60,426 nt of DNA from Patescibacteria group bacterium (lineage in GTDB: Bacteria > Patescibacteriota > Patescibacteriia > Patescibacteriales > UBA12465), in contig JAQVFY010000004.1 of the NCBI GenBank assembly GCA_028696995.1, positions 1 to 60,426 of the forward strand, in the 5' to 3' direction. How positions within the stretch are numbered: position 1 is the first letter of the stretch; each line of letters opens with the position of its first letter. Shown here in pieces: positions 1,266 to 58,716 of the stretch. A program made the translations under genes and the position numbers. A model generated the notes under the pieces. It saw only the letters and a list, made by a program, of their open reading frames with translations. It made no database searches and was not told the origin of the DNA.

Positions 1266-1982
1266 TTATTTAGAATAAACAGTAATATAATTTTTCAACA
1301 CAAAAATACAATCTTTTTTTAAATTACTTTTAATCCAAGCCTTTTCTTTTTCGCTGTCAACCAATTCACCCAACCCCTGTAAGATTTTATTATCTCCTAT
1401 TTTTTCTATAAAATCAACACAATCTCTTAAATAATCTACCACTTTTTTGTCCGTCCATTTTTTAATAATATCAACATCGATGTCCCAATTATTTTTAGCA
1501 AAATAATAAATATCATAAACATCTCTCATGGCTAGCTTTTTTCTAGAAGTAAGAGCAACAAGTTTACTGGCAAATAAATATTCTTTTTTAGCAGTCAAAA
1601 CACTAATACCCAAATAATCATTTAATTCGTAATAATTATTAATATTATCAACTATCTTTCTGGTATTTATTTCTATTTTAATATTGTGATCGTCTGGACC
1701 ATAGGAAAGTAAAGCAAAAATCGTAAATCTTTTAATATAATAATTTTTAACCTCTCCGTAGTTGGATAAAATTTCCACAATTTTTTTAAATATCAATTCT
1801 TTTTTCTCTTCATCAAAGACTAATAAATCAAAATCTAAGTCCACTGAAAATCTTGTTAAATTATAGAAAAAATAAACGCAGGTTCCGCCCTTAAAACCCA
1901 AAATAGAACTAATATTTACATCAGTATAAATATCTCTCAAAATCTGACCCATCAATAATTGATGTTTTTCTTTATTGAGCAT
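1266..1982 (-). CDS. AbiEii/AbiGii-family nucleotidyltransferase toxin (type IV TA, DUF1814-like)
   Basis: The 238-aa product has an N-terminus LGFKGGTCVYFFYNLTRFSVDLDFDL typical of the family. It overlaps the upstream AbiEi-like gene by 11 nt, which is classic TA coupling. Confidence 0.75.
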   Translation of the reverse strand: MLNKEKHQLLMGQILRDIYTDVNISSILGFKGGTCVYFFYNLTRFSVDLDFDLLVFDEEKKELIFKKIVEILSNYGEVKNYYIKRFTIFALLSYGPDDHNIKIEINTRKIVDNINNYYELNDYLGISVLTAKKEYLFASKLVALTSRKKLAMRDVYDIYYFAKNNWDIDVDIIKKWTDKKVVDYLRDCVDFIEKIGDNKILQGLGELVDSEKEKAWIKSNLKKDCIFVLKNYITVYSK

Positions 1983-2544
1983 AATCTTTCTTATAATTAA
2001 TTAACCTCCTTTCCAATTCTTTATTATTATAAACCTTTAATAAATCCTCGCACTTATCCCAATTGATACTACTAAGATTATCAAAATAATAATCTGGAAA
2101 TAAATAAATCATATCCAAAAAAGCTCTCTCAACCGTGGCGATGCTATAATTATTTTCATTGATAATACCACTGGGATTAAATAAAATTATATTTTTCAAT
2201 CTTCTAAAATTAAAAATATTCTTCCCTATTTTTATTTTTTTAGGCCATTTAGAGGCAATAAAAATACTATCGTAGTGCTGAAAAATTACCCCTTGTTCTC
2301 GCAAAACGGTTTCAAAGCTAATATAGGAAGGAACATAAATGCTAGTAGCTAATTCTTTTGGGCTATAATCTTTGTTTTTAGCAAAGACACCACGAGTCAA
2401 TCTTATCAATACTCCCTTCTTAACATAATAAGCTATTTTGTTGTATAAGCTCTCTTTATTGCTATTTTGCCAAATTAAAGCTAGATCTTTGGTGCTTAAA
2501 ATCGTTTTGGGAGATTTATATAATTTTGTTATTAAATTATCCAT
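1972..2544 (-). CDS. AbiEi-family antitoxin / transcriptional regulator
   Basis: The 190-aa product has an N-terminal segment ILSTKDLALIW...KIAYYVKKGVLIRLTRGVFA that matches the AbiEi_4-type winged-helix pattern. It lies directly upstream of, and overlaps, the AbiEii-like gene. Confidence 0.7.
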   Translation of the reverse strand: MDNLITKLYKSPKTILSTKDLALIWQNSNKESLYNKIAYYVKKGVLIRLTRGVFAKNKDYSPKELATSIYVPSYISFETVLREQGVIFQHYDSIFIASKWPKKIKIGKNIFNFRRLKNIILFNPSGIINENNYSIATVERAFLDMIYLFPDYYFDNLSSINWDKCEDLLKVYNNKELERRLINYKKDYAQ

Positions 2545-2629: not shown

Positions 2630-5600
2630 CTATTTTTGAGCTAACCAGACAACAAAATGCCGTTCAGATTTTAAATTTAATTTATTTACCTTAAAACCAA
2701 CCTCTTTTAGGAGGGTCTCCATTTCGTCTTCGGTTAAATCGTAGGCCATATTGGGCAAACCGGACTCATTATCAAACTTATCACGTAATAACATACCTGC
2801 ATACCTAACGTTATTTTCCGGACGTCTTTCAGTATAAAAAATTATATCTTTTTGTTCTTTAGTTTTATTAATTTTCAAGCTCGCAACTATTTTTTTGGAA
2901 GGAATTTCATCATCTTTATATTTATCTACATATAGATAGCCACCTTTTTTTAGAAGGTTATAGTATATTTGTAATGTTGCCTTAATTTTTTCTAAACTTT
3001 TCTTTTTGTCTATTTTAATCTCCTCATTCCAGCCACCATTTGCATATATAATTGTATTCCCACGATTAAATAAAAAATCAAATGAATTTTTCTTAAAATA
3101 TTTCTCCAAATCTAACCAAGGAGAAATTATAATCTCATGCTTAAGCCCTATCTTTTCTAAATCTTTTTTAAACGGCTTAGTCATAAAAACACTTTTATCC
3201 GCAATTTTAAAATTATACCCCTTTATGAGCATTTCTTTAACAAAAAAACCTGGGCCAACCGAAGTGTCTAAAAATCTTGATTTTTTATTTAAACCACAAT
3301 CTTTGAATAAATCTTCAATTTCGCCTACGTACTCATCAACATCATAAAGAAGATTATATTCACACATCTTCCATAATTCAGGAAAATCAGGTTCTTTCTC
3401 AACTTCAATTTCTTGAAGCAAGTCTTTATCACTAATATATTTAATTTCAGCCCCCGTTGCTAAATACCTGGCTGAATCTGGTCCCAGGGGAATATTAAAA
3501 AATTTAAAACTACCCAGATTTTTTTCTTGAAGCATTGTTTTGACATACAACTCAGCTCCTCTCGTAACCGCATCATCACACATAGCGGGGGTTAGCATGA
3601 TAAGAATCTTGTTTTTTGATTTAATCTTGGGTTTTAAAACCTTTTCTGAAACATAATTAAAGTCAATAATATCAGTCTTGCCAAATAATTCTGCTATAAA
3701 TTGACAAACCTCAACTATACAAAATTTTCCACCTGTTTTAGAGTTAAATGTGTTAAAAGTGCATGTTTTTATTTCTTGATTATCAAGAATCTTTATAGAC
3801 AAATCCCAAGTCTCTTTATTAAAAGAATAATTAATCATTCCATTAAAATACTCCTTATTTTTACTAATAAAGTTTTTAAATCTAGCCCGAAGAGCAGTTT
3901 CGCATATATATTTATTCCTATCAAAATTCAAAATATCGTCCTTAATTAATCCTCCTTTGTCTAATATTTCTTGATATATATCCGGTATTTTATTTTTAGA
4001 GTATCTATCCAATAACTCAACCCTATACTCTTCCGCGCTTTTATTATTATTTCTTTTTAATAGCCTTAACTCATTTATTCCTGTAGTATCATTTGCAATT
4101 GTTGTCAATTTGGCAGAAACTCCTTCGCTCTTAAGAAATGAACAAATTTCAACACCCAGTTTCCAGCTATAAATAGGAAAGGTTGTCATGCCCAGCTCAT
4201 CTAAATATTTATGTAAATTTTCAGGCATCAAATCTTTTATACTGGGATAAAAAGTGTTTCCATCTAAATCAGGTACGGCCATAAAATGACCGGCCATAAT
4301 AATAACTTCTGTATTTTTTTTATCATGAATACTATCTATAATTTTGCTTAAAATTTGTTTTTTTGAATTAACTAAAATATTTCTTTTATAATAAACAAAA
4401 TTCCTAAACCTCTCTAAATTCTCATTCTTGATAAGCCCTTTCTTTTTGTCAAGATAAAACTTCAATTCCTGAACAAACCTCTCTATATCATCCTCATCAT
4501 TATAACACCCTAGACTAACCCTAATTGTCTCTGAGCCCAATTCATCACTCAGTGGAAAGGCGCAATGAGATCCATATCGGATACAAATCTTTCTCTTATT
4601 AAAATGATCACCAATATCCTTAACGGACTCATCTTTAATAGAAAAAGAAACCAAACCTATTTTATCTTCTATCCTCTTTGGTCCATAAATACTTAGACCC
4701 TCTATTTCACTCAATTTATCAATAAGAGATTTTAATAATTCCAATTCATGTTTTCGTATTTCTAGATAAGACACTGAACGAATAAAATTAACTGCTTCTG
4801 ATAAAGCAATAATATTAGAAACATTAGGAGTGCCTCCCTCTAATCCGGCTAATCCCGGTAATAGATCTAGCACCAAATCATCCTTCTTTTTCCCTTTAAC
4901 AATAGAGGCATCACTTACTACTCCCCCACCAATACGAACCATTTTCATAAGTGGCCAAACATTTTTTGAGGCAAATAATACTCCAACTCCATCAGGGCCA
5001 TACATTTTATGAGAAGAAAAAGCACAGAAATCACATTTAGCCTTTTTAGTATCTACCGGAATATGGGAAATGGAATTAGCTGAATCAATTATATAGATAA
5101 TATCTTTATTAAACTTCTTTATTAGAGCTCCTATTTTTTCAATTGGATTAATCCCTCCTAGAACATTGGATGAATGTTGTAGAGACACTATTTTTGTCTT
5201 AGATGATAATTTTTCCTTTAAATCATTTACATCGATTAGCCCATCCTTTAAACCAACAACTCGAAAAATTGCTCCTCTTTCTATCATTTTCTTAAAAGGA
5301 AGCATATTAGAGTGATGCTCAGCAATAGAGATAATTATTTCATCGCCCTTTTTTATCTCGTCTAAAATGGTGTCCACAGCCAAATTAATTGAATCAGTGG
5401 TATTTCCGGTAAAAACAATTTCTTCTTTTTGACAATTTATGAAACGAGCAATATTCTCTCTAGCCAAATCAATTTTTTCTTCGTTTTTAGTGGCAATAGA
5501 GTGAGAACTTCTGTGTGGATTACCCTTATTCTCTAAACCAGAATGAGCAACATTAATAACTACAGCTGGAGTCTGCGTTGTAGCAGCGCTATCCAAATAC

Positions 5601-5647
5601 ACTAAAGAATTATTTCTAAAAAATGGAAACCTAGCTTTTAGATTCAT
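2630..5647 (-). CDS. three-part fusion protein: class-V aminotransferase/cysteine desulfurase (aa 1-~400) + unassigned middle module (~440-750) + class I SAM-dependent methyltransferase (~790-1005)
   Basis: The N-terminal part carries SSHKMYGP (PLP lysine at about aa 214) and GSHCAFP (active-site Cys at about aa 362). The C-terminal part carries FLDTSVGPG, a glycine-rich SAM motif I. I recognise no motif in the middle region. Confidence 0.75.
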   Translation of the reverse strand: MNLKARFPFFRNNSLVYLDSAATTQTPAVVINVAHSGLENKGNPHRSSHSIATKNEEKIDLARENIARFINCQKEEIVFTGNTTDSINLAVDTILDEIKKGDEIIISIAEHHSNMLPFKKMIERGAIFRVVGLKDGLIDVNDLKEKLSSKTKIVSLQHSSNVLGGINPIEKIGALIKKFNKDIIYIIDSANSISHIPVDTKKAKCDFCAFSSHKMYGPDGVGVLFASKNVWPLMKMVRIGGGVVSDASIVKGKKKDDLVLDLLPGLAGLEGGTPNVSNIIALSEAVNFIRSVSYLEIRKHELELLKSLIDKLSEIEGLSIYGPKRIEDKIGLVSFSIKDESVKDIGDHFNKRKICIRYGSHCAFPLSDELGSETIRVSLGCYNDEDDIERFVQELKFYLDKKKGLIKNENLERFRNFVYYKRNILVNSKKQILSKIIDSIHDKKNTEVIIMAGHFMAVPDLDGNTFYPSIKDLMPENLHKYLDELGMTTFPIYSWKLGVEICSFLKSEGVSAKLTTIANDTTGINELRLLKRNNNKSAEEYRVELLDRYSKNKIPDIYQEILDKGGLIKDDILNFDRNKYICETALRARFKNFISKNKEYFNGMINYSFNKETWDLSIKILDNQEIKTCTFNTFNSKTGGKFCIVEVCQFIAELFGKTDIIDFNYVSEKVLKPKIKSKNKILIMLTPAMCDDAVTRGAELYVKTMLQEKNLGSFKFFNIPLGPDSARYLATGAEIKYISDKDLLQEIEVEKEPDFPELWKMCEYNLLYDVDEYVGEIEDLFKDCGLNKKSRFLDTSVGPGFFVKEMLIKGYNFKIADKSVFMTKPFKKDLEKIGLKHEIIISPWLDLEKYFKKNSFDFLFNRGNTIIYANGGWNEEIKIDKKKSLEKIKATLQIYYNLLKKGGYLYVDKYKDDEIPSKKIVASLKINKTKEQKDIIFYTERRPENNVRYAGMLLRDKFDNESGLPNMAYDLTEDEMETLLKEVGFKVNKLNLKSERHFVVWLAQK

Positions 5648-5676
5648 ATTATTATAATTTTTTATTATATTTAATA

Positions 5677-6699
5677 TTATAGCACATTAACCTCCTCTTC
5701 CAAATCAATATCAAACCTGTTTTTCACCTCTTGTTTTATATTTTCTACCAAACCCAAAACATCCTTCTGCTTCGCTCCACCGTGATTTACGATTATCAAG
5801 GCCTGTTTTTCATAAATTCCCACCGGTCCAAAAGTCTTTCCTTTAAAACCACATTGCTCTATTAACCAACCAGCTGGAATTTTAAATCCCTGCTCATCCA
5901 CAAAACTTTTTATATCCGGAAACTTCTCTTTTAAGACCTTAAAATGTTCGGGATTAATTATGGGATTTTTAAAAAATGATCCAGCATTAGCTAAAACTGC
6001 CGGATTAGGCAATTTACTATCACGAATTTCTCTAATAATTTCCGTTAACTCCCTTAAACTTGGCTCCTTAATTCCTCTCTCCTCCAAGACTCGCTGAACA
6101 TCGGGATAATTTAAATTTAATTTCCCACTACGACTAAGTTTAAATTCCACCCAAAGAATAAAGTATTTTCCTTTTAATTCTTTTTTAAAAACACTATCAC
6201 GATAGGAAAAATTACAATCCTCTAAATTAAAAAATCTCCCCTCCCCTGTTTTTATATCAACTGCTTTTAGATTATAAAAAACGTCTTTGATTTCCGTACC
6301 ATAAGCTCCGATATTTTGTATCGGAGAGGCTCCAACCGTCCCAGGGATATAAAAAGTGTTTTCTAAACCATATAAACCATTTTCAATAGTAAAATAAACC
6401 AATTTTGACCAAATTTCTCCACTATAGACTCGAACAATTACCTCACTCTCATTTTCTGATACTATCTCTAAACCCTTAATTTCATTTTTTATCACCAATC
6501 CATCATAACCATCATCAGAAAACAGTAAATTAGAACCACCTCCCAGAACAAAAATTTTTTCATCTTTTTTATTGGCCCAATTAATGGTCGCAAATAATTC
6601 TTCTTCACTTTTAACTACTACAAAATATTTAGCTAAACCGCCAATTTTAAAAGTAGTATAATCAGATAATTTTATATTTTCTAAAATTTTTATATCCAT
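5677..6699 (-). CDS. murB: UDP-N-acetylenolpyruvoylglucosamine reductase
   Basis: The 340-aa product has the FAD-binding N-terminus LSDYTTFKIGGLAKYF...VLGGGSNLL. It sits in a mur cluster. Confidence 0.9.
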   Translation of the reverse strand: MDIKILENIKLSDYTTFKIGGLAKYFVVVKSEEELFATINWANKKDEKIFVLGGGSNLLFSDDGYDGLVIKNEIKGLEIVSENESEVIVRVYSGEIWSKLVYFTIENGLYGLENTFYIPGTVGASPIQNIGAYGTEIKDVFYNLKAVDIKTGEGRFFNLEDCNFSYRDSVFKKELKGKYFILWVEFKLSRSGKLNLNYPDVQRVLEERGIKEPSLRELTEIIREIRDSKLPNPAVLANAGSFFKNPIINPEHFKVLKEKFPDIKSFVDEQGFKIPAGWLIEQCGFKGKTFGPVGIYEKQALIIVNHGGAKQKDVLGLVENIKQEVKNRFDIDLEEEVNVL

Positions 6700-11518: not shown

Positions 11519-11932
11519 TTAAAAATTAATTGAATAAACAGAATATTGGGCTAAAACTAGAAAAATATGTAATAATAATAAAAAGGATAATATAAAATAA
11601 GCTAAAAATTTAAAATTATTTCTCTTTAATAAAAATAATAGAATTATTTTATCAATTAAAATAAAAATCAAACCAAATAAAGGAATAATAAAAAATAATT
11701 TTTTATCACCAATAAAATCAATTCCAAAATCAACATTATAATGTAAAATAGCAATATCCTGACTTATATTACTATACATATAATAAGTCGCTAACCATAA
11801 AAATAAATTTATCAAAATAATTGAGATAAAATAAATCTTAATAAAAGAAAACCTAAATAAATTATTTAAGAGTATTTTGTACTTTCTTAAAAAAACAGAC
11901 AAACGATCATAAATTTTAATAAAAAAATCCAT
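11519..11932 (-). CDS. small polytopic membrane protein, function unknown (first gene of the mur block)
   Basis: The 137-aa product has about 4 hydrophobic helices. I recognise no motif. Confidence 0.45.
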   Translation of the reverse strand: MDFFIKIYDRLSVFLRKYKILLNNLFRFSFIKIYFISIILINLFLWLATYYMYSNISQDIAILHYNVDFGIDFIGDKKLFFIIPLFGLIFILIDKIILLFLLKRNNFKFLAYFILSFLLLLHIFLVLAQYSVYSINF

Positions 11933-16369: not shown

Positions 16370-18337
16370 CTAGGGTTTAAAATAAAAAACCATGATTCTA
16401 CCATCAGCTACACTATAAACCATATTAGCTTCGACTCTAGCTTCTTCTATTATTCTATCAAAAGCCCACCAATAATCATTAACTACAAAATAAACACCCT
16501 CAGCTCCAATTTCCGACATTAAATCTAACATCAACTCCCTATCAGGCGCTTCAATCATCTTCAAATAATAATCATACAACAACCCTCCAGTTTGAACCGA
16601 ATAATAAAGCCAGGGTCCGTAATATCTTTTAAAGCCATACTCCTTGATGGCACTAGCTCCGACCTGTTGATTAGCCAAAACAATATAATTATCATTCTCC
16701 TTAACACTATCAATAAAACCAACCGCCATGAAATCAGCTGATGAAACCGAATAAGAACGAGAATTAAAATAATTATCTTTGCGAGGATAATTTAGATATA
16801 GTGAAGTTAAAAGGAGAAGTGATAAAAATATTATAACAATAATTTTAAAAGGTTTTTTTTCTTGACTTATTTTTTTCATCAAACAAATAAACATCTCATA
16901 AAAAATCGGAATTAAAAACAAAAATGATAAAATAAAAATCCTATTAGCATAACTATTTTTATCAATTTGGCTTAGAAACGGAAAATCAATAAAGATACTA
17001 ATAAAATATGACAACATTAAAGCAGTGGAATTAAAATAAAAAATCTTTAAATCTCGACGCTTGAATTTAAAAACAAAAACCGTAGCAAGGATAAATAATA
17101 TTAACAAGCAAATATTTTTATTTAAGCCAAATAAATAGATAAAATTAAGGAAAATATTTTCCTGACCCAATAATCGTGGAATCCAATTAGAAAAATCCAT
17201 ACTAAAAGATGCAAAACGCCCCCCCGATAATATTAAAAGTGTTGGTAAAATAATAATTTGGCCTAAATAGGCTATGATTTTTAAATAATAAGAACTGGAT
17301 TCCCGCTTTCGCGGGAATGACAAGGGGTGCGAGAATGACAAGGGGTTATGAAATGAAGTGAATAGTATAAAGGTAAAAATAATGGCTGGGACTCCCGCTA
17401 AAGGATGAATAAAAAATATTGCTAAAGACAAAGAAAATAAAAAGAAAAAATTAAAACGATTTTTTACAAAGTACTTATTAAAAGAAAACAGCAATAAAAT
17501 AATTAAGAATAAAAAAGATAAATTTTGTGGAACAGTATAAGTAAAAATAGAGAAAGGTAAAACCAGAAAAATAACTAATGGCCAAATTGTCTTATCAAAT
17601 CCCCTTCTCTTAAAATTATGAATAAAAGTTACTGGAATTAAAATCACTGATAAAATAGGTACCAACATTTTATCTAAAATCTCTGGAGAAAATGGCCAAA
17701 TTTTTAAAACAAATAACTCTAAAGTATATTGTCCAATATAATAAATAGTTTTGGGTTCAATTAAACCAAATTTTAAAATATCGGAGATAGCTCTTTGATG
17801 AAGTAATTGATCATAACCAAAAGCTATCTTGTAAACAAAAAATGAAATCGAAAAAAATAAGAAATAAAATAAAAGAAGAAATAAATAAGACCACCTGTTT
17901 TTAAAATAAAAATTTACAAACAATGTTAATAATAAAAACCATAAAAATATCCAAAAATATGTGGGTAAAAAATGCCAAGGAGAGGCAATGGCTGAAAAAC
18001 TACCAAATTTAAATAATATTTGAAATAGAATAAAAAATAAGCTTAAAGTTATTAAGGGTAAAATAATTTTTAAGATAATTCCACCACCCCTAACCTCATC
18101 GCCAGACTGTCGCCCTTGAGAAATCGGCAAAGCTTGTTGATTAGACCTATAAATGCTAAAATAAACAAAGATATAAGTTAAAAACAAAGCCAAAAAAAAG
18201 ATAATTACTAGCACTAAATCATTAAACTTGTAAAAATAATAAAAAACCGAACCAATATTTATAATCAGCGATAAAAATAACAGAAAAATAGTCAAAAAAT
18301 TTGTCTTTAAATATTTCGAAAAATTGTTTAAACTCAT
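16370..18337 (-). CDS. large polytopic membrane protein with a C-terminal soluble domain, possibly a GT-C-type glycosyltransferase or polymerase
   Basis: The 655-aa product has more than 12 hydrophobic helices followed by a soluble tail of about 150 aa. It is adjacent to glycosyltransferase genes. The functional call is by context only. Confidence 0.5.
   Translation of the reverse strand: MSLNNFSKYLKTNFLTIFLLFLSLIINIGSVFYYFYKFNDLVLVIIFFLALFLTYIFVYFSIYRSNQQALPISQGRQSGDEVRGGGIILKIILPLITLSLFFILFQILFKFGSFSAIASPWHFLPTYFWIFLWFLLLTLFVNFYFKNRWSYLFLLLFYFLFFSISFFVYKIAFGYDQLLHQRAISDILKFGLIEPKTIYYIGQYTLELFVLKIWPFSPEILDKMLVPILSVILIPVTFIHNFKRRGFDKTIWPLVIFLVLPFSIFTYTVPQNLSFLFLIILLLFSFNKYFVKNRFNFFFLFSLSLAIFFIHPLAGVPAIIFTFILFTSFHNPLSFSHPLSFPRKRESSSYYLKIIAYLGQIIILPTLLILSGGRFASFSMDFSNWIPRLLGQENIFLNFIYLFGLNKNICLLILFILATVFVFKFKRRDLKIFYFNSTALMLSYFISIFIDFPFLSQIDKNSYANRIFILSFLFLIPIFYEMFICLMKKISQEKKPFKIIVIIFLSLLLLTSLYLNYPRKDNYFNSRSYSVSSADFMAVGFIDSVKENDNYIVLANQQVGASAIKEYGFKRYYGPWLYYSVQTGGLLYDYYLKMIEAPDRELMLDLMSEIGAEGVYFVVNDYWWAFDRIIEEARVEANMVYSVADGRIMVFYFKP
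17297..17345. repeat. GC-rich palindromic element inserted in frame in the CDS
   Basis: An 8-bp hairpin ATTCCCGC-TTTC-GCGGGAAT lies at 17299-17318. It is followed by two copies of GAATGACAAGGGG (17315-17327 and 17333-17345, period 18). The element is translated as HNPLSFSHPLSFPRKRESS. Confidence 0.7.
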
Positions 18338-32725: not shown

Positions 32726-33982
32726 TTAATCCTTTCTCAAAGCCTCAACCGGGTCTAGTCGGCCAGCCTTTCTAGCCGGAAGAAGACCAAACAGAACCCC
32801 AAAAAATAAAGCAAATAATATAGAAACCACAAAAGCCTTGAATGGCAAAACAAATTTCCATTCCAGACCAAAATAATTAGCCCCCAAACAAATCAAGAAA
32901 GAAAATAAAATTCCCAAAATTATTCCAAAAAAAGCCCCAATCAAAGTTATTAAAATCGATTCGATTAAAAATTGACGCATAATATCAGAAAATTTAGCTC
33001 CCACCGCCTTGCGCAAACCAATCTCCGGAGTTCTTTCAGAAACTATTACATACATAACATTTAATATTCCCACTCCGCCAACTATCAAAGAAATTGTTAC
33101 TATTAAAAGTAATAAGATAGTAATACTATTAGTAATATTCTTAGAAGTCTTTAACATTTCTCCCATTGTAGTCACTCTAAAATCATCTCTATCGGGATTA
33201 GGAATATCATGATTTTCTCGAAGAATCTCTCTCATAATTTCAGCAGTTTCCTCTGATTGATTAGGATCAATTATTTTATGAACCATATACATAAAATAAT
33301 CTATACCCATTATTTTCTTCTGTAAAGTTTTAACTGGTAAAAAAACCATGGAATCAAAATCAAGACCCACGGTTGCTCCGCGCTCCTCCAATACCCCTAT
33401 CACCTGATAACGTCCTCTTTTAATAGTAACAGTTTTCCCAACAGGATCATCTTCTTGAAAAATGTCCTGTGCAATTTTAGAACCCAAAACTATTACTTGA
33501 GACAAGGAATTATTATCACTATCAGTAAAAAAATAGCCACTACTAACTTCGGACTTATCAATATTAATATAATCAGGACCAACTCCGAATAAAAAAACTT
33601 TCTTAGTTTCGCTGAGATAAGTCAATGTTTCCTGACTGAGAATAGCCCCATAACCAGAAGAAACATTATCTATCTTTTTTATATCTTCCAAATCTTTTTC
33701 CTTCATAGTAGTAACCTGCACCCCACTAGCAATAGCTCCAGCACTATCTGTTTCGGCTTCCATGCCTTTTTTAGAACTAGGAACTCGCACCTCAGTCTGA
33801 ATAATATTAGTACCAAAAGCCTCAATTTGACCAATTATCAAACTTCGAATGCCTTCTCCCGCTGAAAAAACAATAATAATACTAGCGATGCCAATAACCA
33901 TGCCTAATACAGTCAGGGTCGTTCTCATTTTGTTTTTAATCATCGCTATCAGCGATAATCGGACAACTTCTTTTATTCTCAT
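32726..33982 (-). CDS. MacB/FtsX-type ABC transporter permease
   Basis: The 418-aa product has an N-terminal TM helix, a large extracytoplasmic domain and a C-terminal FtsX 3-TM bundle. It ends in GLLPARKAGRLDPVEALR. Confidence 0.85.
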   Translation of the reverse strand: MRIKEVVRLSLIAMIKNKMRTTLTVLGMVIGIASIIIVFSAGEGIRSLIIGQIEAFGTNIIQTEVRVPSSKKGMEAETDSAGAIASGVQVTTMKEKDLEDIKKIDNVSSGYGAILSQETLTYLSETKKVFLFGVGPDYINIDKSEVSSGYFFTDSDNNSLSQVIVLGSKIAQDIFQEDDPVGKTVTIKRGRYQVIGVLEERGATVGLDFDSMVFLPVKTLQKKIMGIDYFMYMVHKIIDPNQSEETAEIMREILRENHDIPNPDRDDFRVTTMGEMLKTSKNITNSITILLLLIVTISLIVGGVGILNVMYVIVSERTPEIGLRKAVGAKFSDIMRQFLIESILITLIGAFFGIILGILFSFLICLGANYFGLEWKFVLPFKAFVVSILFALFFGVLFGLLPARKAGRLDPVEALRKD

Positions 33983-33994
33983 ATATTAGAAAAA

Positions 33995-35251
33995 TTATTC
34001 ATAACTCAAGGCCTCCACCGGCTCCAATTTACTAGCTCGTTTAGCTGGATAAATTCCAAAAACTAAACCTACTAAAGCCGAAATACTAACTGCTAATAAT
34101 ACTGAAATAGGACCAACCACAAAAGCCCAATCATAATTAAGAGAAACCATTATTAATGATATCAACCAAGAAATAATGACCCCTAAAATAATACCGATAA
34201 TTCCCCCTATTAAAGTTAAAAAAACTGATTCTAATAAAAATTGACTAATAATATTTCTATTAGAAGCTCCAATAGCTTTTCTAACTCCGATCTCCCTAGT
34301 TCTTTCATTGACACTAATAAGCATAATATTCATTATCCCGATTCCACCGACTACTAGAGATAATCCGGCCATTAAGGCTAGAAAATATTTCAAAGCATCA
34401 GTAATTGTTTTAATTAAATCCAATAACTCTGTTAAGCTACGAACAGAAAAATCATCACTATCGCCACTCTGATCAAGAATTCCATGATTAGTTCGTAAAA
34501 TAATTTCAACTTCATTTATCACTAAATCGACATCGGCTGATTCTTCTGGCTTGATAGTGATCATATTTAAATAATCAATGCCAGCAATATTTTTTTGCAT
34601 GGTTTTCAGCGGTAATAATACCTTATCATCATAATTACTAAAGGCCACCTGCCCTCGCTCTTCTAAGACTCCAATGATATTAAAAATTTGTCTATTTATT
34701 TTAACCCTTTGGCCAACCGCTATGGAGTCACCAAATAATTCCTCTTTAACAGTGCTACCTAAAACAACCACCTTAGCCAAGCTATCATTTTCCTCTTCTG
34801 TAAAAAATCTTCCTGAAGATAATTCCCCTCCTTCAGTATCTAAATAAGCTTCAGTTACTCCCTCTAAATTAGTATCATAAGAATTGTTTTGAAAAGAAAC
34901 AGTTCCTACACCATTAACATAAGCAGTTAGAGCTGAAATCCCAATATCATTTTTAGATCTTTCTATAGAATTTAAATCATCTAAACTAAGAGAGGTTACT
35001 ACTATTCCTAAAACTGAAGTTGGTGGACCACTATCATCTGATTTTCCGGGAGTAACAGAAATAGTATTAGAGCCAATGCTTTCAATTTGTCCCAAAATCA
35101 AACTCTGAGCCCCAGCTCCAACTGACATAATAACTATAACAGAAGCTACACCAATTATAATTCCCAGCATAGTTAAAAAGCTCCTAGTTTTATTAGCCTT
35201 AAGAGCTTTAATTGAAGTTCTAAATGATTGTTTAAAGTTTAAGATATTCAT
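33995..35251 (-). CDS. MacB/FtsX-type ABC transporter permease (paralog)
   Basis: The 418-aa product has the same architecture as its neighbour and ends in GIYPAKRASKLEPVEAL. Confidence 0.85.
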   Translation of the reverse strand: MNILNFKQSFRTSIKALKANKTRSFLTMLGIIIGVASVIVIMSVGAGAQSLILGQIESIGSNTISVTPGKSDDSGPPTSVLGIVVTSLSLDDLNSIERSKNDIGISALTAYVNGVGTVSFQNNSYDTNLEGVTEAYLDTEGGELSSGRFFTEEENDSLAKVVVLGSTVKEELFGDSIAVGQRVKINRQIFNIIGVLEERGQVAFSNYDDKVLLPLKTMQKNIAGIDYLNMITIKPEESADVDLVINEVEIILRTNHGILDQSGDSDDFSVRSLTELLDLIKTITDALKYFLALMAGLSLVVGGIGIMNIMLISVNERTREIGVRKAIGASNRNIISQFLLESVFLTLIGGIIGIILGVIISWLISLIMVSLNYDWAFVVGPISVLLAVSISALVGLVFGIYPAKRASKLEPVEALSYE

Positions 35252-35263
35252 ACCAAATAATAA

Positions 35264-35977
35264 TTACTTTAAGAGCTCGGCCTCTTTAGCAAACCTCCTA
35301 TTCTTAACAACCTCGTCACTCAATATCAGGCCATCCTTAACCCTAATAATCCTCTTAGCGTGTTCGGCTGTAAAAGTCTCGTGAGTAACTAAAATAATAG
35401 TATTGCCCTCTTCGTTCAATTTCTGTAAAATATTCATAATTTGAGTACCCGACTTAGAATCCAAATTCCCCGTTGGCTCATCAGCAAAAATAACCGAAGG
35501 ATTATTAACCAAAGCTCGAGCAATAGCCACTCTCTGTTTTTCTCCTCCCGAAATCTGATTAGTGTAATAATTCAAACGATGCCCCAAACCAACACTATCT
35601 AGAACTTTTTTAGCCCTGTCACCCATATTTTTCCGATTATCCGAATAAGTCAAAGGTAAAATAACATTATCTAAAACAGAAGTCTTGGGTAGTAAATTAA
35701 AAGATTGAAAAACAAAACCAATTTTTTTATTACGAAAACCAGCTAACTGATCATCGTCTAACTCATTAACATTCTGTCCATCAAATTCATAAGAACCATC
35801 ACTAAGACGATCGAGTAACCCTAAAATATGCATCAAAGTTGATTTACCTGAACCAGAAGGACCCATAATAGAAACAAATTCCCCCTTATCAATATCAAAA
35901 GAAACTCCATGCAAAACTCTGGTGACAACATCACCAGAGTTAAATTCTTTTTTTAGATCTCTAATTTTTATTAACAT
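35264..35977 (-). CDS. ABC transporter ATP-binding protein (MacB/LolD class)
   Basis: The product carries Walker [10 protein letters not shown], the signature [14 protein letters not shown] and Walker [13 protein letters not shown]. Confidence 0.9.
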
Positions 35978-35983
35978 ATCAAT

Positions 35984-37894
35984 TTATTTTTTAATAGCCG
36001 TTATCACTAAAAAGCCTTCTTGCAATTCGTCAGAAGAAACCTCGGCCATAGCTTGATCACCGGATATTCCCAAGGTGACAGGAATTTCACGAACATTTTT
36101 GCCTTCTAATACTCGAATATAACGATCTCCACCATTGCGCAATAAAACAGCGCGAGCTGGAACAGCAAAAACATCCTTCTTAGAATTAGCAACAATATCA
36201 ACATTAGAAGTCATGCCAGATTTAATAATAAAACCATTTTTTTTCAGCTCATCCTCAGTAAAACTTATTTTTATCTTATAATAAATAACATCAGAAATAG
36301 CAGTAGAAGCCGGCTCAATAAAGTAAACTTGACCCTTAACCTTATAATCATCACCAAAAGCATCGAAGGTTATATCCGCCTCATTCCCTATTTTTAATTT
36401 AGAAATATTAGACTCAGAAATAAAAACCTCAATTTCAAAATTATTTTCAGTTAATAAACTAATAACTGGGCTAGTCCCACTAATCTGCTCCCCAACCTCA
36501 TAATTTATCTTGACCACCTTGCCATTAATAGGGGCTTTTATAGTATTATCTTCAATTTGTTTTTCTATTAAACTCAAATTGGCATTAGCAGAATCAACCT
36601 GAGCCTGAGCTAATTTTAAATCATCTGCTTTAGCTGGAGTTTTTAATTTAGCTAATTGTAATTGAACTACCTCATAATTTTTCTTAGCTGAATCAACTCG
36701 GGCCTCAGCTGATAATTTTTGTTGATTACCATTTATCTTCGCTAAAGACAAAGTATTCTCAGCAGTATTAATAGCATCACTTAAAGCGGTTTCCGCTTGT
36801 AAAACAGCATCTTGAGCGCTAGCTATATTGGTATCATAAGCCAAAAGAGCATTAGTAAAAGCAAAATAAGAATTTTGGATAGCAGTAATAGAGGTGCTGA
36901 TAGAACTTTTGTTGGAATTAACTGTAGTCTTAAAAGCATCTAAGGAAGATTGAGGAAAAGAAGAAGAAATTATAGAATTTTCCAAAGCACTAAAACAATT
37001 ATTTAAAACCGAAAAAACATCATCTAAAAACAGATCTAATCCATCTGAAGCCTTCTTAATATTTTCCTGACTGGGATTCCTTTTAGCAGTCTCAATACTA
37101 GAATTAAGAACCGGAATCTCTTCTATAGCTTTATTATATAATCTATCAGTTTCTGATTTATAAAAATAATTTTTAACACTAAAAACATTTTCAATATCCT
37201 CATCCTCTACTATTCTATTAACAGCATCCAAAGAAGCTCTAGCCACTGAAAAATTATAATCCAAAGCAGATAATAAAGACCCTTGACTATTATTGATAGT
37301 TTGTTGAGAAGTTTTTTTAGTATTCTCTAGACCAACCTTAGCCGAATCAACTGCTTGCTTCACAGACATTGGAACTAAAAAGTTAGGGGCCTGCAAATCA
37401 CTGAGAGTTTTTTCAGCTTGATAAATATTTTCATCAACAATTTTTTGTACTTGCTCTAAATCACTCTTAGAAGAATCATAAGCACTTTTAGCTTGTTTAA
37501 CCTGAGCTTCTAAGACAGCAATATCCTCATAAGAAGCTCCTCGGATAAGCTTATCTTGATTAGTTTGAGCAATTTCCAAAGTTGCAAAAGCCTCCTCTTT
37601 TCTAATTAATAAAGAAGAATAATCTAATTCAGCTAGAACGTCACCCTCATTAACTTGATCCCCCACTTTAACATTAAGTAAATTCAATTTTCCAGCTTGA
37701 GAAAAGTTTAAAGCAATTTCTTGGCTAGCCTTAACTGTTCCAATCTCACTAACTGTTTGAACAATATCTTGTTTCTTTAATTCTGTAGTAATATATTCAA
37801 CTTTCTCCTTCCGAAAAATAATCGGAAGAATTATAATTAAAAGCAAAACCACAGCACCAGAAATAATGATAATTTTCTTTTTTTTCTTTTTCAT
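35984..37894 (-). CDS. HlyD/membrane-fusion-family adaptor with a very long coiled-coil region
   Basis: The 636-aa product has an N-terminal TM anchor, a lipoyl-like segment GDVLAELD and about 350 aa of heptad-like A/Q/S/L-rich sequence. Its C-terminal part is a beta-barrel region. Confidence 0.75.
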   Translation of the reverse strand: MKKKKKKIIIISGAVVLLLIIILPIIFRKEKVEYITTELKKQDIVQTVSEIGTVKASQEIALNFSQAGKLNLLNVKVGDQVNEGDVLAELDYSSLLIRKEEAFATLEIAQTNQDKLIRGASYEDIAVLEAQVKQAKSAYDSSKSDLEQVQKIVDENIYQAEKTLSDLQAPNFLVPMSVKQAVDSAKVGLENTKKTSQQTINNSQGSLLSALDYNFSVARASLDAVNRIVEDEDIENVFSVKNYFYKSETDRLYNKAIEEIPVLNSSIETAKRNPSQENIKKASDGLDLFLDDVFSVLNNCFSALENSIISSSFPQSSLDAFKTTVNSNKSSISTSITAIQNSYFAFTNALLAYDTNIASAQDAVLQAETALSDAINTAENTLSLAKINGNQQKLSAEARVDSAKKNYEVVQLQLAKLKTPAKADDLKLAQAQVDSANANLSLIEKQIEDNTIKAPINGKVVKINYEVGEQISGTSPVISLLTENNFEIEVFISESNISKLKIGNEADITFDAFGDDYKVKGQVYFIEPASTAISDVIYYKIKISFTEDELKKNGFIIKSGMTSNVDIVANSKKDVFAVPARAVLLRNGGDRYIRVLEGKNVREIPVTLGISGDQAMAEVSSDELQEGFLVITAIKK

Positions 37895-58550: not shown

Positions 58551-58557
58551 AATTATG

Positions 58558-58631
58558 AGCCGCCTGTCGGGTTCGAACCGACGACCTACTGTTTACAAGA
58601 CAGTCGCTCTGGCCAGCTGAGCTAAGGCGGC
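58558..58631 (-). tRNA. tRNA-Thr (anticodon UGU)
   Basis: I folded this cloverleaf by hand from GCCGCCT-TA-GCTC-AGCTGGCCA-GAGC-G-ACTGT-CTTGTAA-ACAGT-AGGTC-GTCGG-TTCGAAC-CCGAC-AGGCGGC-T. It is 74 nt and no CCA is encoded. Confidence 0.9.
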
Positions 58632-58643
58632 AGAAAGATATAG

Positions 58644-58716
58644 TGCGCCCAGCAGGATTCGAACCTGCGACCTTCTGCTTAAAAGGCAGCTGCTCTACCA
58701 ACTGAGCTATGAGCGC
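58644..58716 (-). tRNA. tRNA-Lys (anticodon UUU)
   Basis: I folded this cloverleaf by hand from GCGCTCA-TA-GCTC-AGTTGGTA-GAGC-A-GCTGC-CTTTTAA-GCAGA-AGGTC-GCAGG-TTCGAAT-CCTGC-TGGGCGC-A. It is 73 nt and no CCA is encoded. Confidence 0.9.

What the first reader, a model, noticed from the sequence alone, without database searches (positions are those of the whole stretch)
2630..5647. 1005-aa fusion of a SufS-like cysteine desulfurase, an unassigned ~300-aa module and a SAM methyltransferase, transcribed at the tail of the mur operon
- **N-terminal part (aa 1-~400):** it has intact desulfurase hallmarks, SSHKMYGP with the PLP lysine and GSHCAFP with the persulfide cysteine.
- **C-terminal part (~790-1005):** it has a class I methyltransferase motif I, LDTSVGPG.
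- **Middle part (about aa 440-750):** it includes VIIMAGHFMAVPD, TTIANDTTG, CTFNTFNSKTGGKFCIVEVC and LTPAMCDD. I cannot match it to any family I recognise.
- **Functional idea (inference only):** a sulfur mobiliser and a methyl donor on one chain suggest a thiolation-then-methylation or methylthiolation chemistry on an unknown substrate.
- **Position:** the gene starts 29 nt after murB on the same strand, an unusual place for such an enzyme.
Basis: partly seen in the sequence, partly recalled or inferred. Interest (0 to 1): 0.75.

Follow-up and report, generated by a model that had tools for sequence, protein, structure and literature searches.

The report
Conserved desulfurase–novel domain–methyltransferase fusion enzyme
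This is a real 1005-residue enzyme, shared by some ultra-small bacteria (CPR) and archaea (DPANN), that joins a cysteine-sulfur-mobilising domain, a previously unannotated domain shaped like the core of a tRNA synthetase, and a small-molecule methyltransferase; it probably makes an unknown sulfur-containing methylated metabolite.

Summary
The ORF (2630-5647, minus strand, 1005 aa) and all quoted motifs are present. It is not an assembly artefact: about 85 clusters from independent assemblies share the three-part architecture.

- **aa 1-398:** a complete SufS-type cysteine desulfurase, with the PLP lysine K214 and the persulfide cysteine C362.
- **aa 399-741:** a domain with no Pfam, NCBIfam or PDB-sequence match. 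Its AlphaFold model (pLDDT 92) most resembles class I aminoacyl-tRNA synthetase catalytic domains (ArgRS, CysRS) in two structure libraries. It has an invariant His/Glu/Cys set. Standalone "hypothetical" relatives exist.
- **aa 746-1005:** a class I methyltransferase closest to glycine/sarcosine and glycine N-methyltransferases.

SufS plus the middle domain is the constant core. The methyltransferase is absent in a roughly 745-aa form, and a second paralogous methyltransferase gene often follows the fusion. The mur-operon position is not conserved. Distribution is patchy across Patescibacteria and DPANN.

My best reading is that SufS hands persulfide sulfur to the middle domain, which binds (and possibly adenylates) an amino-acid-like small molecule and thiolates it, and that the methyltransferase(s) then tailor the product, probably on nitrogen. 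Substrate and chemistry remain inferred. No published description was found.

The parts
2630..5647 (-). Whole gene: 1005-aa SufS / novel middle domain / methyltransferase fusion (stop codon at 2630-2632)
   Evidence: ORF. 115 homologues found, of which 78 are full length (>=990 aa).
4454..5647 (-). SufS-type (group II) cysteine desulfurase domain, aa 1-398
   Evidence: PF00266 over aa 16-391, E=4.4e-100. TIGR01979 SufS at 349 bits. PDB SufS chains at E~1e-69. 33% identity to E. coli SufS with the catalytic residues aligned.
5006..5008 (-). Codon of K214, the PLP-binding lysine (aligns with E. coli SufS K226)
   Evidence: Pairwise alignment, FSSHKMYGP against FSGHKLYGP.
4562..4564 (-). Codon of C362, the persulfide-forming cysteine in RYGSHCAFP (aligns with E. 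coli SufS C364)
   Evidence: Pairwise alignment. The motif is invariant in homologues.
3425..4453 (-). Middle domain, aa 399-741: unannotated family with a class I aaRS-like (Rossmann/HUP-type) fold
   Evidence: No Pfam or PDB-sequence hit. AF2 model with pLDDT 91.7 and pTM 0.92. Foldseek PDB gives ArgRS at E=2e-4, prob 0.98, then CysRS, LysRS-I, MshC and CDPS. BFVD gives ArgRS at prob 0.96, then CysRS. The two-domain homologues end at aa 741.
4286..4291 (-). G453-H454, invariant in the fusion family and in standalone relatives, at the C-terminal end of a beta-strand
   Evidence: Conservation. Secondary structure.
3704..3763 (-). aa 629-648, CTFNTFNSKTGGKFCIVEVC: invariant C629, S636-K-T-G-G640, C643 and E646. 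Candidate phosphate-binding or metal/thiol loop.
   Evidence: Conservation. G640, C643 and E646 are also conserved in standalone relatives.
3578..3580 (-). Codon of C690 (P687-x-x-C690), invariant across the whole middle-domain family
2633..3412 (-). Class I SAM-dependent methyltransferase domain, aa 746-1005, GSMT/GNMT-like
   Evidence: Profile against PDB sequences gives GSMT 5gwx at E=2.9e-10 and GNMT at about 4e-4. AF2 model with pLDDT 91.9. Foldseek gives GSMT at E=1e-16 with TM 0.65-0.70, then GNMT, DesVI/TylM1 and CypM. Pfam PF13847 reaches only 17-19.8 bits, below its cut-off, in this copy.
3248..3271 (-). Methyltransferase motif I, LDTSVGPG (aa 793-800), the SAM-binding glycine-rich loop
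   Evidence: Aligned to GSMT 'LDVATGTG'. D794, G798 and G800 are invariant.
5648..5676 (-). 29-nt AT-rich spacer between the murB stop and the start codon. It has no terminator. A promoter-like hexamer pair overlaps the end of murB (5703..5676).
   Evidence: The number of promoter-like sites in the region is at chance level (22 found, 22.6 expected).

Best explanation
The gene encodes a trifunctional enzyme for making a sulfur-containing, methylated small molecule. The substrate is probably amino-acid-like.

1. **Sulfur mobilisation.** The N-terminal SufS domain uses PLP to strip sulfur from L-cysteine and carries it as a persulfide on C362. *Status: the catalytic apparatus is shown; activity is inferred.*
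2. **Sulfur transfer and insertion.** The persulfide passes in cis to the middle domain. This is a new family with a class I aminoacyl-tRNA-synthetase-like nucleotide-binding fold. Its invariant H454/E583/C643/C690 set (plus C629 in the fusions) forms a metal or thiol site. That site accepts the sulfur and inserts it into a bound substrate, possibly after ATP-dependent adenylation of a carboxylate or carbonyl, as in other desulfurase-plus-adenylating-domain systems. *Status: fold and conservation are shown; ATP use, sulfur acceptance and the substrate are inferred.*
3. **Methylation.** The C-terminal GSMT/GNMT-like methyltransferase methylates the substrate or product, most likely on an amine nitrogen. 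In many genomes a second paralogous methyltransferase (MT2) is encoded next door, and the two may act in successive steps. *Status: relatedness and gene linkage are shown; regiochemistry is inferred.*

SufS plus the middle domain is the obligatory core, and methylation is a variable tailoring step. The patchy distribution, exchange between bacteria and archaea, paralogue duplication and adjacent regulators all fit accessory small-molecule metabolism better than housekeeping.
For: - **Real and conserved.** 115 homologues were found, 78 of them full length, from independent assemblies.
- **SufS is complete.** PF00266 scores E=4e-100. K214, C362, H111/H112, D188, R357 and R376 align with E. coli K226, C364, H123/H124, D200, R359 and R379.
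- **Middle domain.**
  - The AF2 model is confident.
  - Class I aaRS catalytic domains top two independent structure libraries. In the PDB these are ArgRS (three hits at E<1e-3), CysRS, LysRS-I, MetRS, LeuRS, MshC and CDPS. In BFVD they are ArgRS, CysRS and GluRS.
  - The conserved residues sit at the C-terminal ends of beta-strands.
  - G-H, E, C and P..C are invariant even in distant standalone relatives.
  - The only domains found fused to this family are SufS and this methyltransferase.
- **Methyltransferase.** GSMT is the best match by sequence profile (E=2.9e-10, with the acceptor-site 'GN' of CLGNSF aligned to NRGN), by structure (E=1e-16) and in NCBIfam for MT2.
- **Modularity.**
  - Roughly 745-aa SufS+middle forms exist (24 clusters).
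  - MT2 sits directly downstream in 12 of the 25 full-length loci, counting this window (MT2 fragments lie in two more), and in 2 of 9 short-form loci.
  - In L042 the methyltransferase lies upstream, and L026 carries tandem divergent copies.
- **Accessory character.**
  - The pattern scan found only 30 loci among 185,579 species representatives. All are Patescibacteria or DPANN.
  - A bacterial copy (this window, with a mur operon) and an archaeal copy (L003, beside RNA polymerase Rpb2/Rpb5) share 56-64% identity per module.
  - A divergent TrmB-family regulator lies upstream in 8 loci.
Against: - No substrate is identified, and no conserved biosynthetic neighbour other than MT2 was found.
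- The aaRS likeness is at fold level only. TM-scores are about 0.3, identity is 8-14%, and hhalign against E. coli ArgRS and CysRS gives probability below 1%. Canonical HIGH and KMSKS motifs are not recognisable, so ATP use is unproven.
- I could not see coordinates, so clustering of H454/E583/C629/C643/C690 into one site is not verified.
- The methyltransferase fold class also contains C-methyltransferases, and Te/Se methyltransferases appear among the weak sequence hits.
- The window encodes an Fe-S enzyme (MtaB) and no other desulfurase within its 60 kb. This SufS could therefore also, or instead, serve general Fe-S supply.
Confidence: 0.4

Rival explanations
1. It is an RNA (tRNA or rRNA) modification enzyme. 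The aaRS-like middle domain binds and adenylates a nucleobase or acceptor end, SufS supplies the sulfur, and the methyltransferase adds a methyl group to the same or a neighbouring nucleotide.
For: - The best structural matches are tRNA-binding enzymes, and the top hit is an ArgRS-tRNA complex.
- Desulfurase-plus-adenylating-enzyme logic is the rule in tRNA thiolation (reviews listed).
- Several neighbourhoods are rich in translation and RNA genes, such as the CCA-adding enzyme, S15, EF-P, S6/S18 and TyrRS.
Against: - There is no anticodon-binding or other RNA-binding domain. The domain is only about 340 aa.
- There is no PP-loop SGGxDS motif (sequence).
- Distribution is very patchy, with only 30 pattern-scan loci among species representatives. 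The methyltransferase is optional or duplicated. Both are unusual for a core tRNA modification.
- The methyltransferase is nearest to small-molecule N-methyltransferases, not RNA methyltransferases.
Confidence: 0.15
2. The middle domain is simply a dedicated persulfide acceptor or scaffold for this group II desulfurase, doing the job of SufE or SufU. It feeds general Fe-S cluster and thio-cofactor synthesis in organisms with minimal genomes, and the methyltransferase is functionally separate.
For: - Group II SufS enzymes need an acceptor partner (established knowledge; E. coli sufE lies beside sufS).
- The fusions have three invariant cysteines.
- The window encodes the Fe-S enzyme MtaB and no second desulfurase or sufE/sufU-like gene near the fusion.
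- The SufS+middle pairing is constant.
Against: - A domain of about 340 aa with an enzyme-like fold and many invariant polar residues (H454, D460, N519-D-T-T-G, E526, E583, R587, N597, S-K-T-G-G, E646, E653) is far more than an acceptor loop needs.
- Relatives occur standalone, away from any desulfurase.
- Linkage to one or two methyltransferases is recurrent.
- The family is rare even within CPR and DPANN, so it cannot be their general Fe-S route.
Confidence: 0.15
3. It is a low-molecular-weight-thiol type pathway. The middle domain is an MshC-like ATP-dependent cysteine ligase (a CysRS paralogue without a tRNA domain) that joins cysteine to an acceptor, and the methyltransferase(s) N-methylate the cysteinyl amine, as in N-methyl-bacillithiol. 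SufS would modulate cysteine or persulfide supply.
For: - CysRS chains and MshC (3c8z) are among the structural matches.
- A conserved Cys/His/Glu set recalls the zinc site that recognises the cysteine thiol in CysRS and MshC. This is from my own knowledge and was not tested here.
- The methyltransferases are amine-N-methyltransferase-like.
Against: - A desulfurase destroys cysteine, so fusing it to a cysteine ligase makes little sense.
- MshC ranks only 34th, with probability 0.25.
- There is no sequence similarity to CysRS.
- No glycosyltransferase or deacetylase partner genes are conserved nearby.
Confidence: 0.1
4. It is a selenium or tellurium handling enzyme. The SufS/CsdB-type domain acts as a selenocysteine lyase, the middle domain activates or carries selenide, and the methyltransferase volatilises or detoxifies it.
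For: - Group II desulfurases are good selenocysteine lyases. PDB names such as 1i29 and 1jf9 are 'selenocysteine lyase', and JGI labels several homologues that way.
- TehB appears among the weak methyltransferase hits.
Against: - The TehB hits are much weaker than the GSMT/GNMT hits.
- No selD or other selenium genes lie nearby.
- Nothing in the middle domain resembles SelD.
Confidence: 0.05
5. It is an artefactual join of separate genes, through misassembly or a sequencing frameshift.
For: None beyond the unusual length.
Against: - The same uninterrupted architecture occurs in about 85 clusters from different samples and assemblers and in 24 further sequenced loci.
- The linker residues are themselves conserved (K401, K402, G404, N408, E412).
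Confidence: 0.01

Closest known systems
SufS / CsdA group II cysteine desulfurases (E. coli SufS, B. subtilis SufS)
   Same: The N-terminal 398 aa have the same fold family, the PLP lysine, the RxGxHCA persulfide cysteine, and the supporting His, Asp and Arg residues.
   Different: - It scores below the NCBIfam SufS cut-off (349 against 475 bits).
- Q203 of E. coli SufS is Asn in this copy.
- No SufE, SufU or SufBCD genes are adjacent.
- It is covalently fused to two further domains.
Desulfurase plus ATP-dependent activating-enzyme sulfur-insertion systems (IscS with ThiI/MnmA, LarE, YcfA/YcfC for 6-thioguanine, Uba4/MOCS3); also the CysH-SufS fusions reported in Methanomicrobiales (PMC11237513)
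   Same: The logic is the same. A PLP desulfurase supplies persulfide sulfur to a Rossmann-type nucleotide-binding domain that acts on the final substrate. A SufS fusion to a Rossmann-type domain has precedent.
   Different: - The partner here is not a PP-loop or E1-like domain. It has no SGGxDS motif, and the structure search returns class I aaRS instead.
- ATP use is unproven.
- A methyltransferase is added.
Class I aminoacyl-tRNA synthetase catalytic domains and their tRNA-independent paralogues (ArgRS, CysRS, MshC, cyclodipeptide synthases)
   Same: These are the best and only consistent structural matches for the middle domain, in two libraries.
   Different: - There is no detectable sequence similarity.
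- HIGH and KMSKS motifs are not recognisable.
- There is no anticodon-binding domain.
- TM-scores are only about 0.3.
- It has its own invariant Cys/His/Glu set.
Glycine/sarcosine N-methyltransferase (GSMT, with SDMT) and glycine N-methyltransferase (GNMT)
   Same: - The C-terminal domain and MT2 are nearest to these by sequence profile, structure and NCBIfam.
- Motif I and the acceptor-site G-N align.
- Two paralogous methyltransferases encoded together recall the GSMT/SDMT pair.
   Different: - Identity is only about 20%.
- Scores are far below the family cut-offs (42-45 against 350 bits).
- The glycine-binding residues were not verified.
- The domain is fused to sulfur-transfer domains.

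Membership tests
SufS-type (group II) cysteine desulfurase | Aminotransferase class V fold (PF00266) over the full domain | tested here: met
   aa 16-391 match profile positions 1-371 of 371, at 335.7 bits against a cut-off of 21.5.
SufS-type (group II) cysteine desulfurase | PLP-binding lysine, and a catalytic cysteine in the RxGxHCA motif | tested here: met
   K214 and C362 align with E. coli SufS K226 and C364. H111/H112, D188, R357 and R376 are also kept.
SufS-type (group II) cysteine desulfurase | Score above the curated NCBIfam SufS family cut-off (TIGR01979) | tested here: not met
   349.1 bits against a cut-off of 475.1. It is a divergent SufS-like branch, not a curated SufS.
SufS-type (group II) cysteine desulfurase | Partnership with SufE or SufU and the SufBCD scaffold | tested here: inconclusive
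   None is present beside the gene in the window or in the other loci. Whole genomes could not be inspected.
SufS-type (group II) cysteine desulfurase | Cysteine desulfurase activity (alanine plus persulfide) | not testable with these tools
   This needs an enzyme assay.
Class I aminoacyl-tRNA synthetase / HUP nucleotide-binding domain | Rossmann-type catalytic fold similar to class I aaRS | tested here: met
   In Foldseek PDB the top 20 are dominated by ArgRS, CysRS, LysRS-I, MetRS and LeuRS, with a best E of 2e-4 and prob 0.98. BFVD gives ArgRS at prob 0.96. TM-scores are only about 0.3, so the similarity is at fold level.
Class I aminoacyl-tRNA synthetase / HUP nucleotide-binding domain | HIGH and KMSKS signature motifs | tested here: inconclusive
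   Neither motif is canonical. The invariant G453-H454 and S636-K-T-G-G640 are candidates only. hhalign to E. coli ArgRS and CysRS does not align them.
Class I aminoacyl-tRNA synthetase / HUP nucleotide-binding domain | Sequence-profile membership (Pfam tRNA-synt_1 families) | tested here: not met
   There is no Pfam hit at E<=10 for the domain or for 61 standalone relatives.
Class I aminoacyl-tRNA synthetase / HUP nucleotide-binding domain | Anticodon-binding domain | tested here: not met
   The domain ends at aa 741 and is followed directly by the methyltransferase or by a stop codon.
PP-loop ATP pyrophosphatase thiolation enzymes (ThiI, MnmA, TtuA, LarE) | SGGxDS PP-loop motif | tested here: not met
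   The motif is absent from the translated sequence. The only PP-loop structure among the Foldseek hits is NAD synthetase, at rank 35 with prob 0.11.
Radical SAM superfamily | CxxxCxxC cluster motif and a Pfam PF04055 match | tested here: not met
   There is no CxxxCxxC motif (cysteine positions). PF04055 scores E=0.037, 14.6 bits against a cut-off of 29.5. The Elp3 stretch scores E=0.46. No radical SAM structure appears in the Foldseek top 50.
GSMT / GNMT small-molecule N-methyltransferases | Class I SAM methyltransferase fold with a glycine-rich motif I | tested here: met
   The AF2 model has pLDDT 91.9. Foldseek gives GSMT at E=1e-16, TM 0.65-0.70. LDTSVGPG aligns with GSMT LDVATGTG.
GSMT / GNMT small-molecule N-methyltransferases | Score above the curated family cut-offs | tested here: not met
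   PF13847 scores 17-19.8 bits against 27. The fused domain has no NCBIfam hit. MT2 scores 42-45 bits against 350 for GlySarMtaseBact.
GSMT / GNMT small-molecule N-methyltransferases | Acceptor-site residues (the G-N of CLGNSF; the glycine-carboxylate Arg and Tyr residues) | tested here: inconclusive
   G863-N864 of the invariant NRGN motif aligns with the GSMT 'GN'. The carboxylate-binding residues lie outside the aligned stretch.
Dnd / Ssp DNA phosphorothioation defence systems | DndA/SspA together with DndC/SspD-type partners | tested here: not met
   Only the SufS part hits SspA and DndA, and more weakly than it hits SufS. No other PADLOC model matches.

The most novel reading that the evidence does not exclude
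The middle domain founds a new enzyme family: an aaRS-fold, possibly ATP-dependent, sulfur-inserting enzyme that takes a persulfide directly from a fused SufS. With one or two GSMT-like N-methyltransferases it would make a previously unknown N-methylated thio-amino-acid, thioacid or thiol-betaine type metabolite. Such a metabolite could be an antioxidant, an osmolyte or an interaction molecule. The pathway has been exchanged between ultra-small CPR bacteria and DPANN archaea.
Probability: 0.25. Interest if true: 0.85.

Novelty: new variant of a known kind. Interest (0 to 1): 0.65.

Why it matters
- CPR bacteria and DPANN archaea have tiny genomes with few biosynthetic pathways. A conserved 1000-residue three-activity enzyme that moves between the two groups is therefore likely to matter for their lifestyle.
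- The middle domain is an unannotated family of at least about 117 clusters at 50% identity, with a confident predicted fold and a clear invariant residue set. It is directly testable.
- If the proposed chemistry holds, it would add a new type of sulfur-insertion enzyme, a class I aaRS-like rather than PP-loop, E1 or rhodanese partner of a desulfurase. It would probably also add a new sulfur metabolite.
- At the least, databases should stop labelling these proteins as plain 'aminotransferase class V' or 'cysteine desulfurase'.

Tried and rejected
- **Sequence assignment of the middle domain.** Pfam at E<=10, PDB sequences with a single sequence and with two profiles, and Pfam and NCBIfam on 61 standalone relatives all gave nothing.
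- **First PDB profile search.** I used an untrimmed alignment, so it only re-found SufS. That search was wasted.
- **hhalign of the middle-domain profile against E. coli ArgRS and CysRS** gave no alignment. My idea that SKTGG is the KMSKS loop and G-H is a remnant of HIGH therefore stays unverified.
- **Radical-SAM/Elp3-like reading of 'VIIMAGHFMAVPD'**. I rejected it: the scores are sub-threshold, there is no cluster motif, and there is no structural support.
- **Defence-system reading**, prompted by the adjacent AbiE pair. PADLOC hits only the generic desulfurase part.
- **Phage carriage.** No relatives were found on viral contigs.
- **Search for informative fusions with the standalone-family profile**. 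It returned only 4 hits, none with an added domain.
- **The PLP neighbour of the Flavobacteriaceae standalone relative.** It scores just above the Pfam cut-off for Cys_Met_Meta_PP. It has no PDB relative and no similarity to the fusion. This is a weak lead only.
- **Conserved operon partners.** ORF clustering over 39 loci found only MT2 and a TrmB-family regulator.
- **Literature.** Four searches found no description of this architecture.
- **Coordinates.** The AF2 model coordinates are not exposed, so residue proximity could not be measured.

Full report
**1. Observation**

The window has one ORF at 2630..5647 on the minus strand, 1005 aa.

The gene follows murB, which is confirmed by PF02873 and PF01565, after a 29-nt AT-rich spacer with no terminator-like site. 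Upstream on the same strand lie murC, murG, ftsW and mraY. Downstream lies an AbiEi/AbiEii toxin-antitoxin pair. GC content is about 30% throughout.

**2. It is a real, conserved protein**

A search with aa 400-1005 alone returned 115 proteins. Of these, 78 are full length (>=990 aa) and share all three parts at 52-71% identity. They come from JGI, ENA, NCBI and Logan assemblies. Public sources call them only 'aminotransferase class V-fold PLP-dependent enzyme' or 'cysteine desulfurase/selenocysteine lyase'. A misassembly or frameshift is therefore excluded.

**3. N-terminal domain (aa 1-398)**

- PF00266 matches end to end, at E=4.4e-100.
- The best NCBIfam model is SufS, TIGR01979, at 349 bits. 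This is below its cut-off of 475.
- PDB SufS chains match at E~1e-69.
- Aligned with E. coli SufS (33% identity), the following residues correspond: K214 to K226, C362 to C364, H111/H112 to H123/H124, D188 to D200, R357 to R359 and R376 to R379. Only Q203 differs, being Asn here.

The desulfurase machinery is intact. Activity is inferred.

**4. Middle domain (aa 399-741)**

*Boundaries.* Two-domain homologues of about 742-750 aa stop at query residue 741.

*No sequence assignment.* There is no Pfam hit even at E<=10, and no PDB sequence hit with a single sequence or a profile.

*Invariant residues.*
- G453-H454 and P459-D460
- N519-D-T-T-G523 and E526
- E583, R587 and N597
- C629, S636-K-T-G-G640, C643, E646 and E653
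- P687 and C690

*Structure.* An AF2 model built on 57 sequences is confident, with pLDDT 91.7 and pTM 0.92. The conserved residues sit at the ends of beta-strands.

*Fold matches.*
- Foldseek against the PDB gives class I aminoacyl-tRNA synthetase catalytic domains almost exclusively at the top. E. coli ArgRS scores E=2e-4 with prob 0.98. Other ArgRS, several CysRS, class I LysRS, MetRS and LeuRS follow, with MshC and cyclodipeptide synthases lower down.
- The independent BFVD library again returns ArgRS (prob 0.96), CysRS and GluRS.
- TM-scores are only about 0.3 and identities 8-14%.
- hhalign against E. coli ArgRS and CysRS finds nothing.

I therefore call it class I aaRS-like at fold level only. 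ATP use and any HIGH or KMSKS equivalence are hypotheses. A weak Elp3/radical-SAM-like stretch has no structural support, and I rejected it.

**5. The middle domain is a wider, unannotated family**

An exhaustive profile search found 117 cluster representatives at E<=1e-3. They include standalone proteins of 250-360 aa, all labelled 'hypothetical', from a Flavobacteriaceae MAG, candidate division KSB1, Paceibacteria and a Nanoarchaeota-labelled MAG. None has a Pfam or NCBIfam match.

Across this wide family G-H, E583, C643, P687 and C690 stay invariant. That points to a metal or thiol active site.

The contexts of the standalone members vary:
- a weak Cys/Met-family PLP enzyme nearby (L005);
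- a Liv-type ABC permease in an operon (L013);
- a B12-binding-domain protein and a solute symporter (L011);
- a cytidylyltransferase-like gene (L012).

**6. C-terminal domain (aa 746-1005)**

- Pfam methyltransferase models are sub-threshold in this copy, at 17-19.8 bits against a cut-off of 27.
- A family profile hits glycine/sarcosine N-methyltransferase at E=2.9e-10 and GNMT at about 4e-4. Motif I and the acceptor-site 'GN' are aligned.
- The AF2 model (pLDDT 91.9) matches GSMT best, at E=1e-16 and TM 0.65-0.70. GNMT, the amino-sugar N,N-dimethyltransferases DesVI and TylM1, the peptide N-terminal methyltransferase CypM, and some C-methyltransferases follow.

This favours a small-molecule acceptor, most likely an amine. 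It gives no specific support to S-methylation.

**7. Modularity and context**

I collected 39 non-redundant loci, counting this window, and clustered their ORFs. Only two neighbours recur.

- **A standalone paralogue of the methyltransferase domain (MT2, 260-290 aa).**
  - It lies directly downstream in 12 of the 25 full-length loci and 2 of the 9 short-form loci, often overlapping the stop codon.
  - It forms its own clade. Identity is 46% among standalone copies, 60% among fused copies, and 39% between the two.
  - The L003 copy aligns over its full length at hhalign E=9e-59.
  - In L042 a methyltransferase, split into two ORFs, lies upstream of a short form.
- **A divergently transcribed TrmB-family regulator**, present in 8 loci.

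L026 carries two divergent full-length copies in tandem.

The mur-operon position is not conserved. Only two other loci have a murC-like gene nearby, and in a different arrangement.

So SufS plus the middle domain is the constant core, with no, one or two methyltransferases.

**8. Distribution**

A pattern-limited scan of 185,579 species-representative genomes found 30 loci. All are from Patescibacteria or from Woesearchaeota and 'Nanoarchaeota'. The Patescibacteria include Paceibacterota, Andersenbacteria, Falkowbacteria, Vogelbacteria and Peregrinibacteria.

The window copy is in a bacterial context, with mur genes, ftsW and dnaB. L003 is in an archaeal context, beside RNA polymerase Rpb2 and Rpb5. 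The two share 56-64% identity per module.

In a distance tree, four archaeal-labelled copies form one clade, and most short forms form another. No copy was found on viral contigs.

The patchy, cross-domain distribution argues for an accessory function spread by horizontal transfer.

**9. Mechanism**

The best-supported reading, at confidence about 0.4, has three steps.

1. SufS makes a C362 persulfide from cysteine.
2. The middle domain accepts it at its Cys/His/Glu site and inserts the sulfur into a bound, probably amino-acid-like small molecule, possibly after adenylation.
3. The GSMT-like methyltransferase(s) then tailor the molecule, probably on nitrogen.

| Shown | Inferred |
|---|---|
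| Domain identities | Sulfur hand-over |
| Intact SufS residues | ATP use |
| Fold class of the middle domain | The substrate |
| Conservation | Methylation site |
| Gene linkage | |

Rivals, with my confidence in each:

| Rival reading | Confidence |
|---|---|
| RNA thiolation and methylation | 0.15 |
| A SufE/SufU-like acceptor for general Fe-S supply | 0.15 |
| An MshC-like cysteine ligase pathway | 0.10 |
| Selenium or tellurium handling | 0.05 |
| Assembly artefact | 0.01 |

The Fe-S supply rival is worth noting because the window encodes MtaB, an Fe-S enzyme.

**10. Comparison and novelty**

The logic resembles known pairings of a desulfurase with an activating enzyme. A CysH-SufS fusion has been reported in Methanomicrobiales (PMC11237513). 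Here, however, the partner is neither a PP-loop nor an E1-like domain. It is an unannotated family with a class I aaRS-like fold, and it is joined to GSMT-like methyltransferases.

Four literature searches found no description of this architecture. I rate it a new variant of a known kind of system, containing a new domain family. Interest is 0.65.

Noticed in passing
window 1266-2544 (-): An AbiEi antitoxin (1972-2544) and AbiEii nucleotidyltransferase toxin (1266-1982) pair lies immediately downstream of the fusion gene, with overlapping reading frames. PADLOC scores are E=2.5e-58 and 2.1e-63.
   Followed up: partly
window 57192-58716 (-): An MtaB-type radical-SAM methylthiotransferase scores 368.7 bits on TIGR01579, above its cut-off. 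tRNA-Thr(TGT) and tRNA-Lys(TTT) genes lie just upstream of it on the same strand. The organism therefore needs Fe-S clusters and a sulfur supply.
   Followed up: partly
window 11519-11932 (-): A 137-aa hydrophobic ORF lies upstream of mraY, in a stretch with only 16% GC. It may be a small membrane protein of the division/cell-wall cluster. It was not analysed.
   Followed up: no
window 16370-18337 (-): A 655-aa ORF has no Pfam match at E<=1e-5.
   Followed up: no
L026:4804-10969: Two full-length copies of the fusion gene (1008 and 1006 aa) sit in tandem. They belong to different subclades, and the second groups with the window copy.
   Followed up: partly
L042:1321-4592: Here a methyltransferase of the same family lies upstream of a short (745-aa) SufS+middle gene. 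It is split into two ORFs (200 and 103 aa), so it may be a pseudogene or a sequencing frameshift.
   Followed up: no
L004, L009, L012, L022, L037, L039, L040, L041 (upstream of the gene): A divergently transcribed TrmB-family HTH regulator of about 260-285 aa recurs immediately upstream of short-form, standalone and one full-length member. It is a likely dedicated regulator. It is absent from the window.
   Followed up: partly
L016, L017, L021, L026-L028, L030, L034, L036, L037, L041: Several MAG records carrying this gene are titled 'uncultured Gammaproteobacteria', 'Bdellovibrionales' or 'Saccharibacteria'. Their proteins nevertheless interleave with Patescibacteria copies in the tree. The taxon labels look unreliable.
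   Followed up: no
L011:4433-7857: In a KSB1 MAG, a distant standalone relative of the middle domain overlaps the start of a gene for a B12-binding-domain protein, and it follows a sodium:solute symporter gene.
   Followed up: no
window 32726-37894 (-): There is a MacB/FtsX-type permease (32726-33982), a second ORF of equal length (33995-35251), and a HlyD-family membrane-fusion protein (35984-37894). Together they suggest a tripartite efflux system, which is unusual for a bacterium expected to lack an outer membrane.
   Followed up: no
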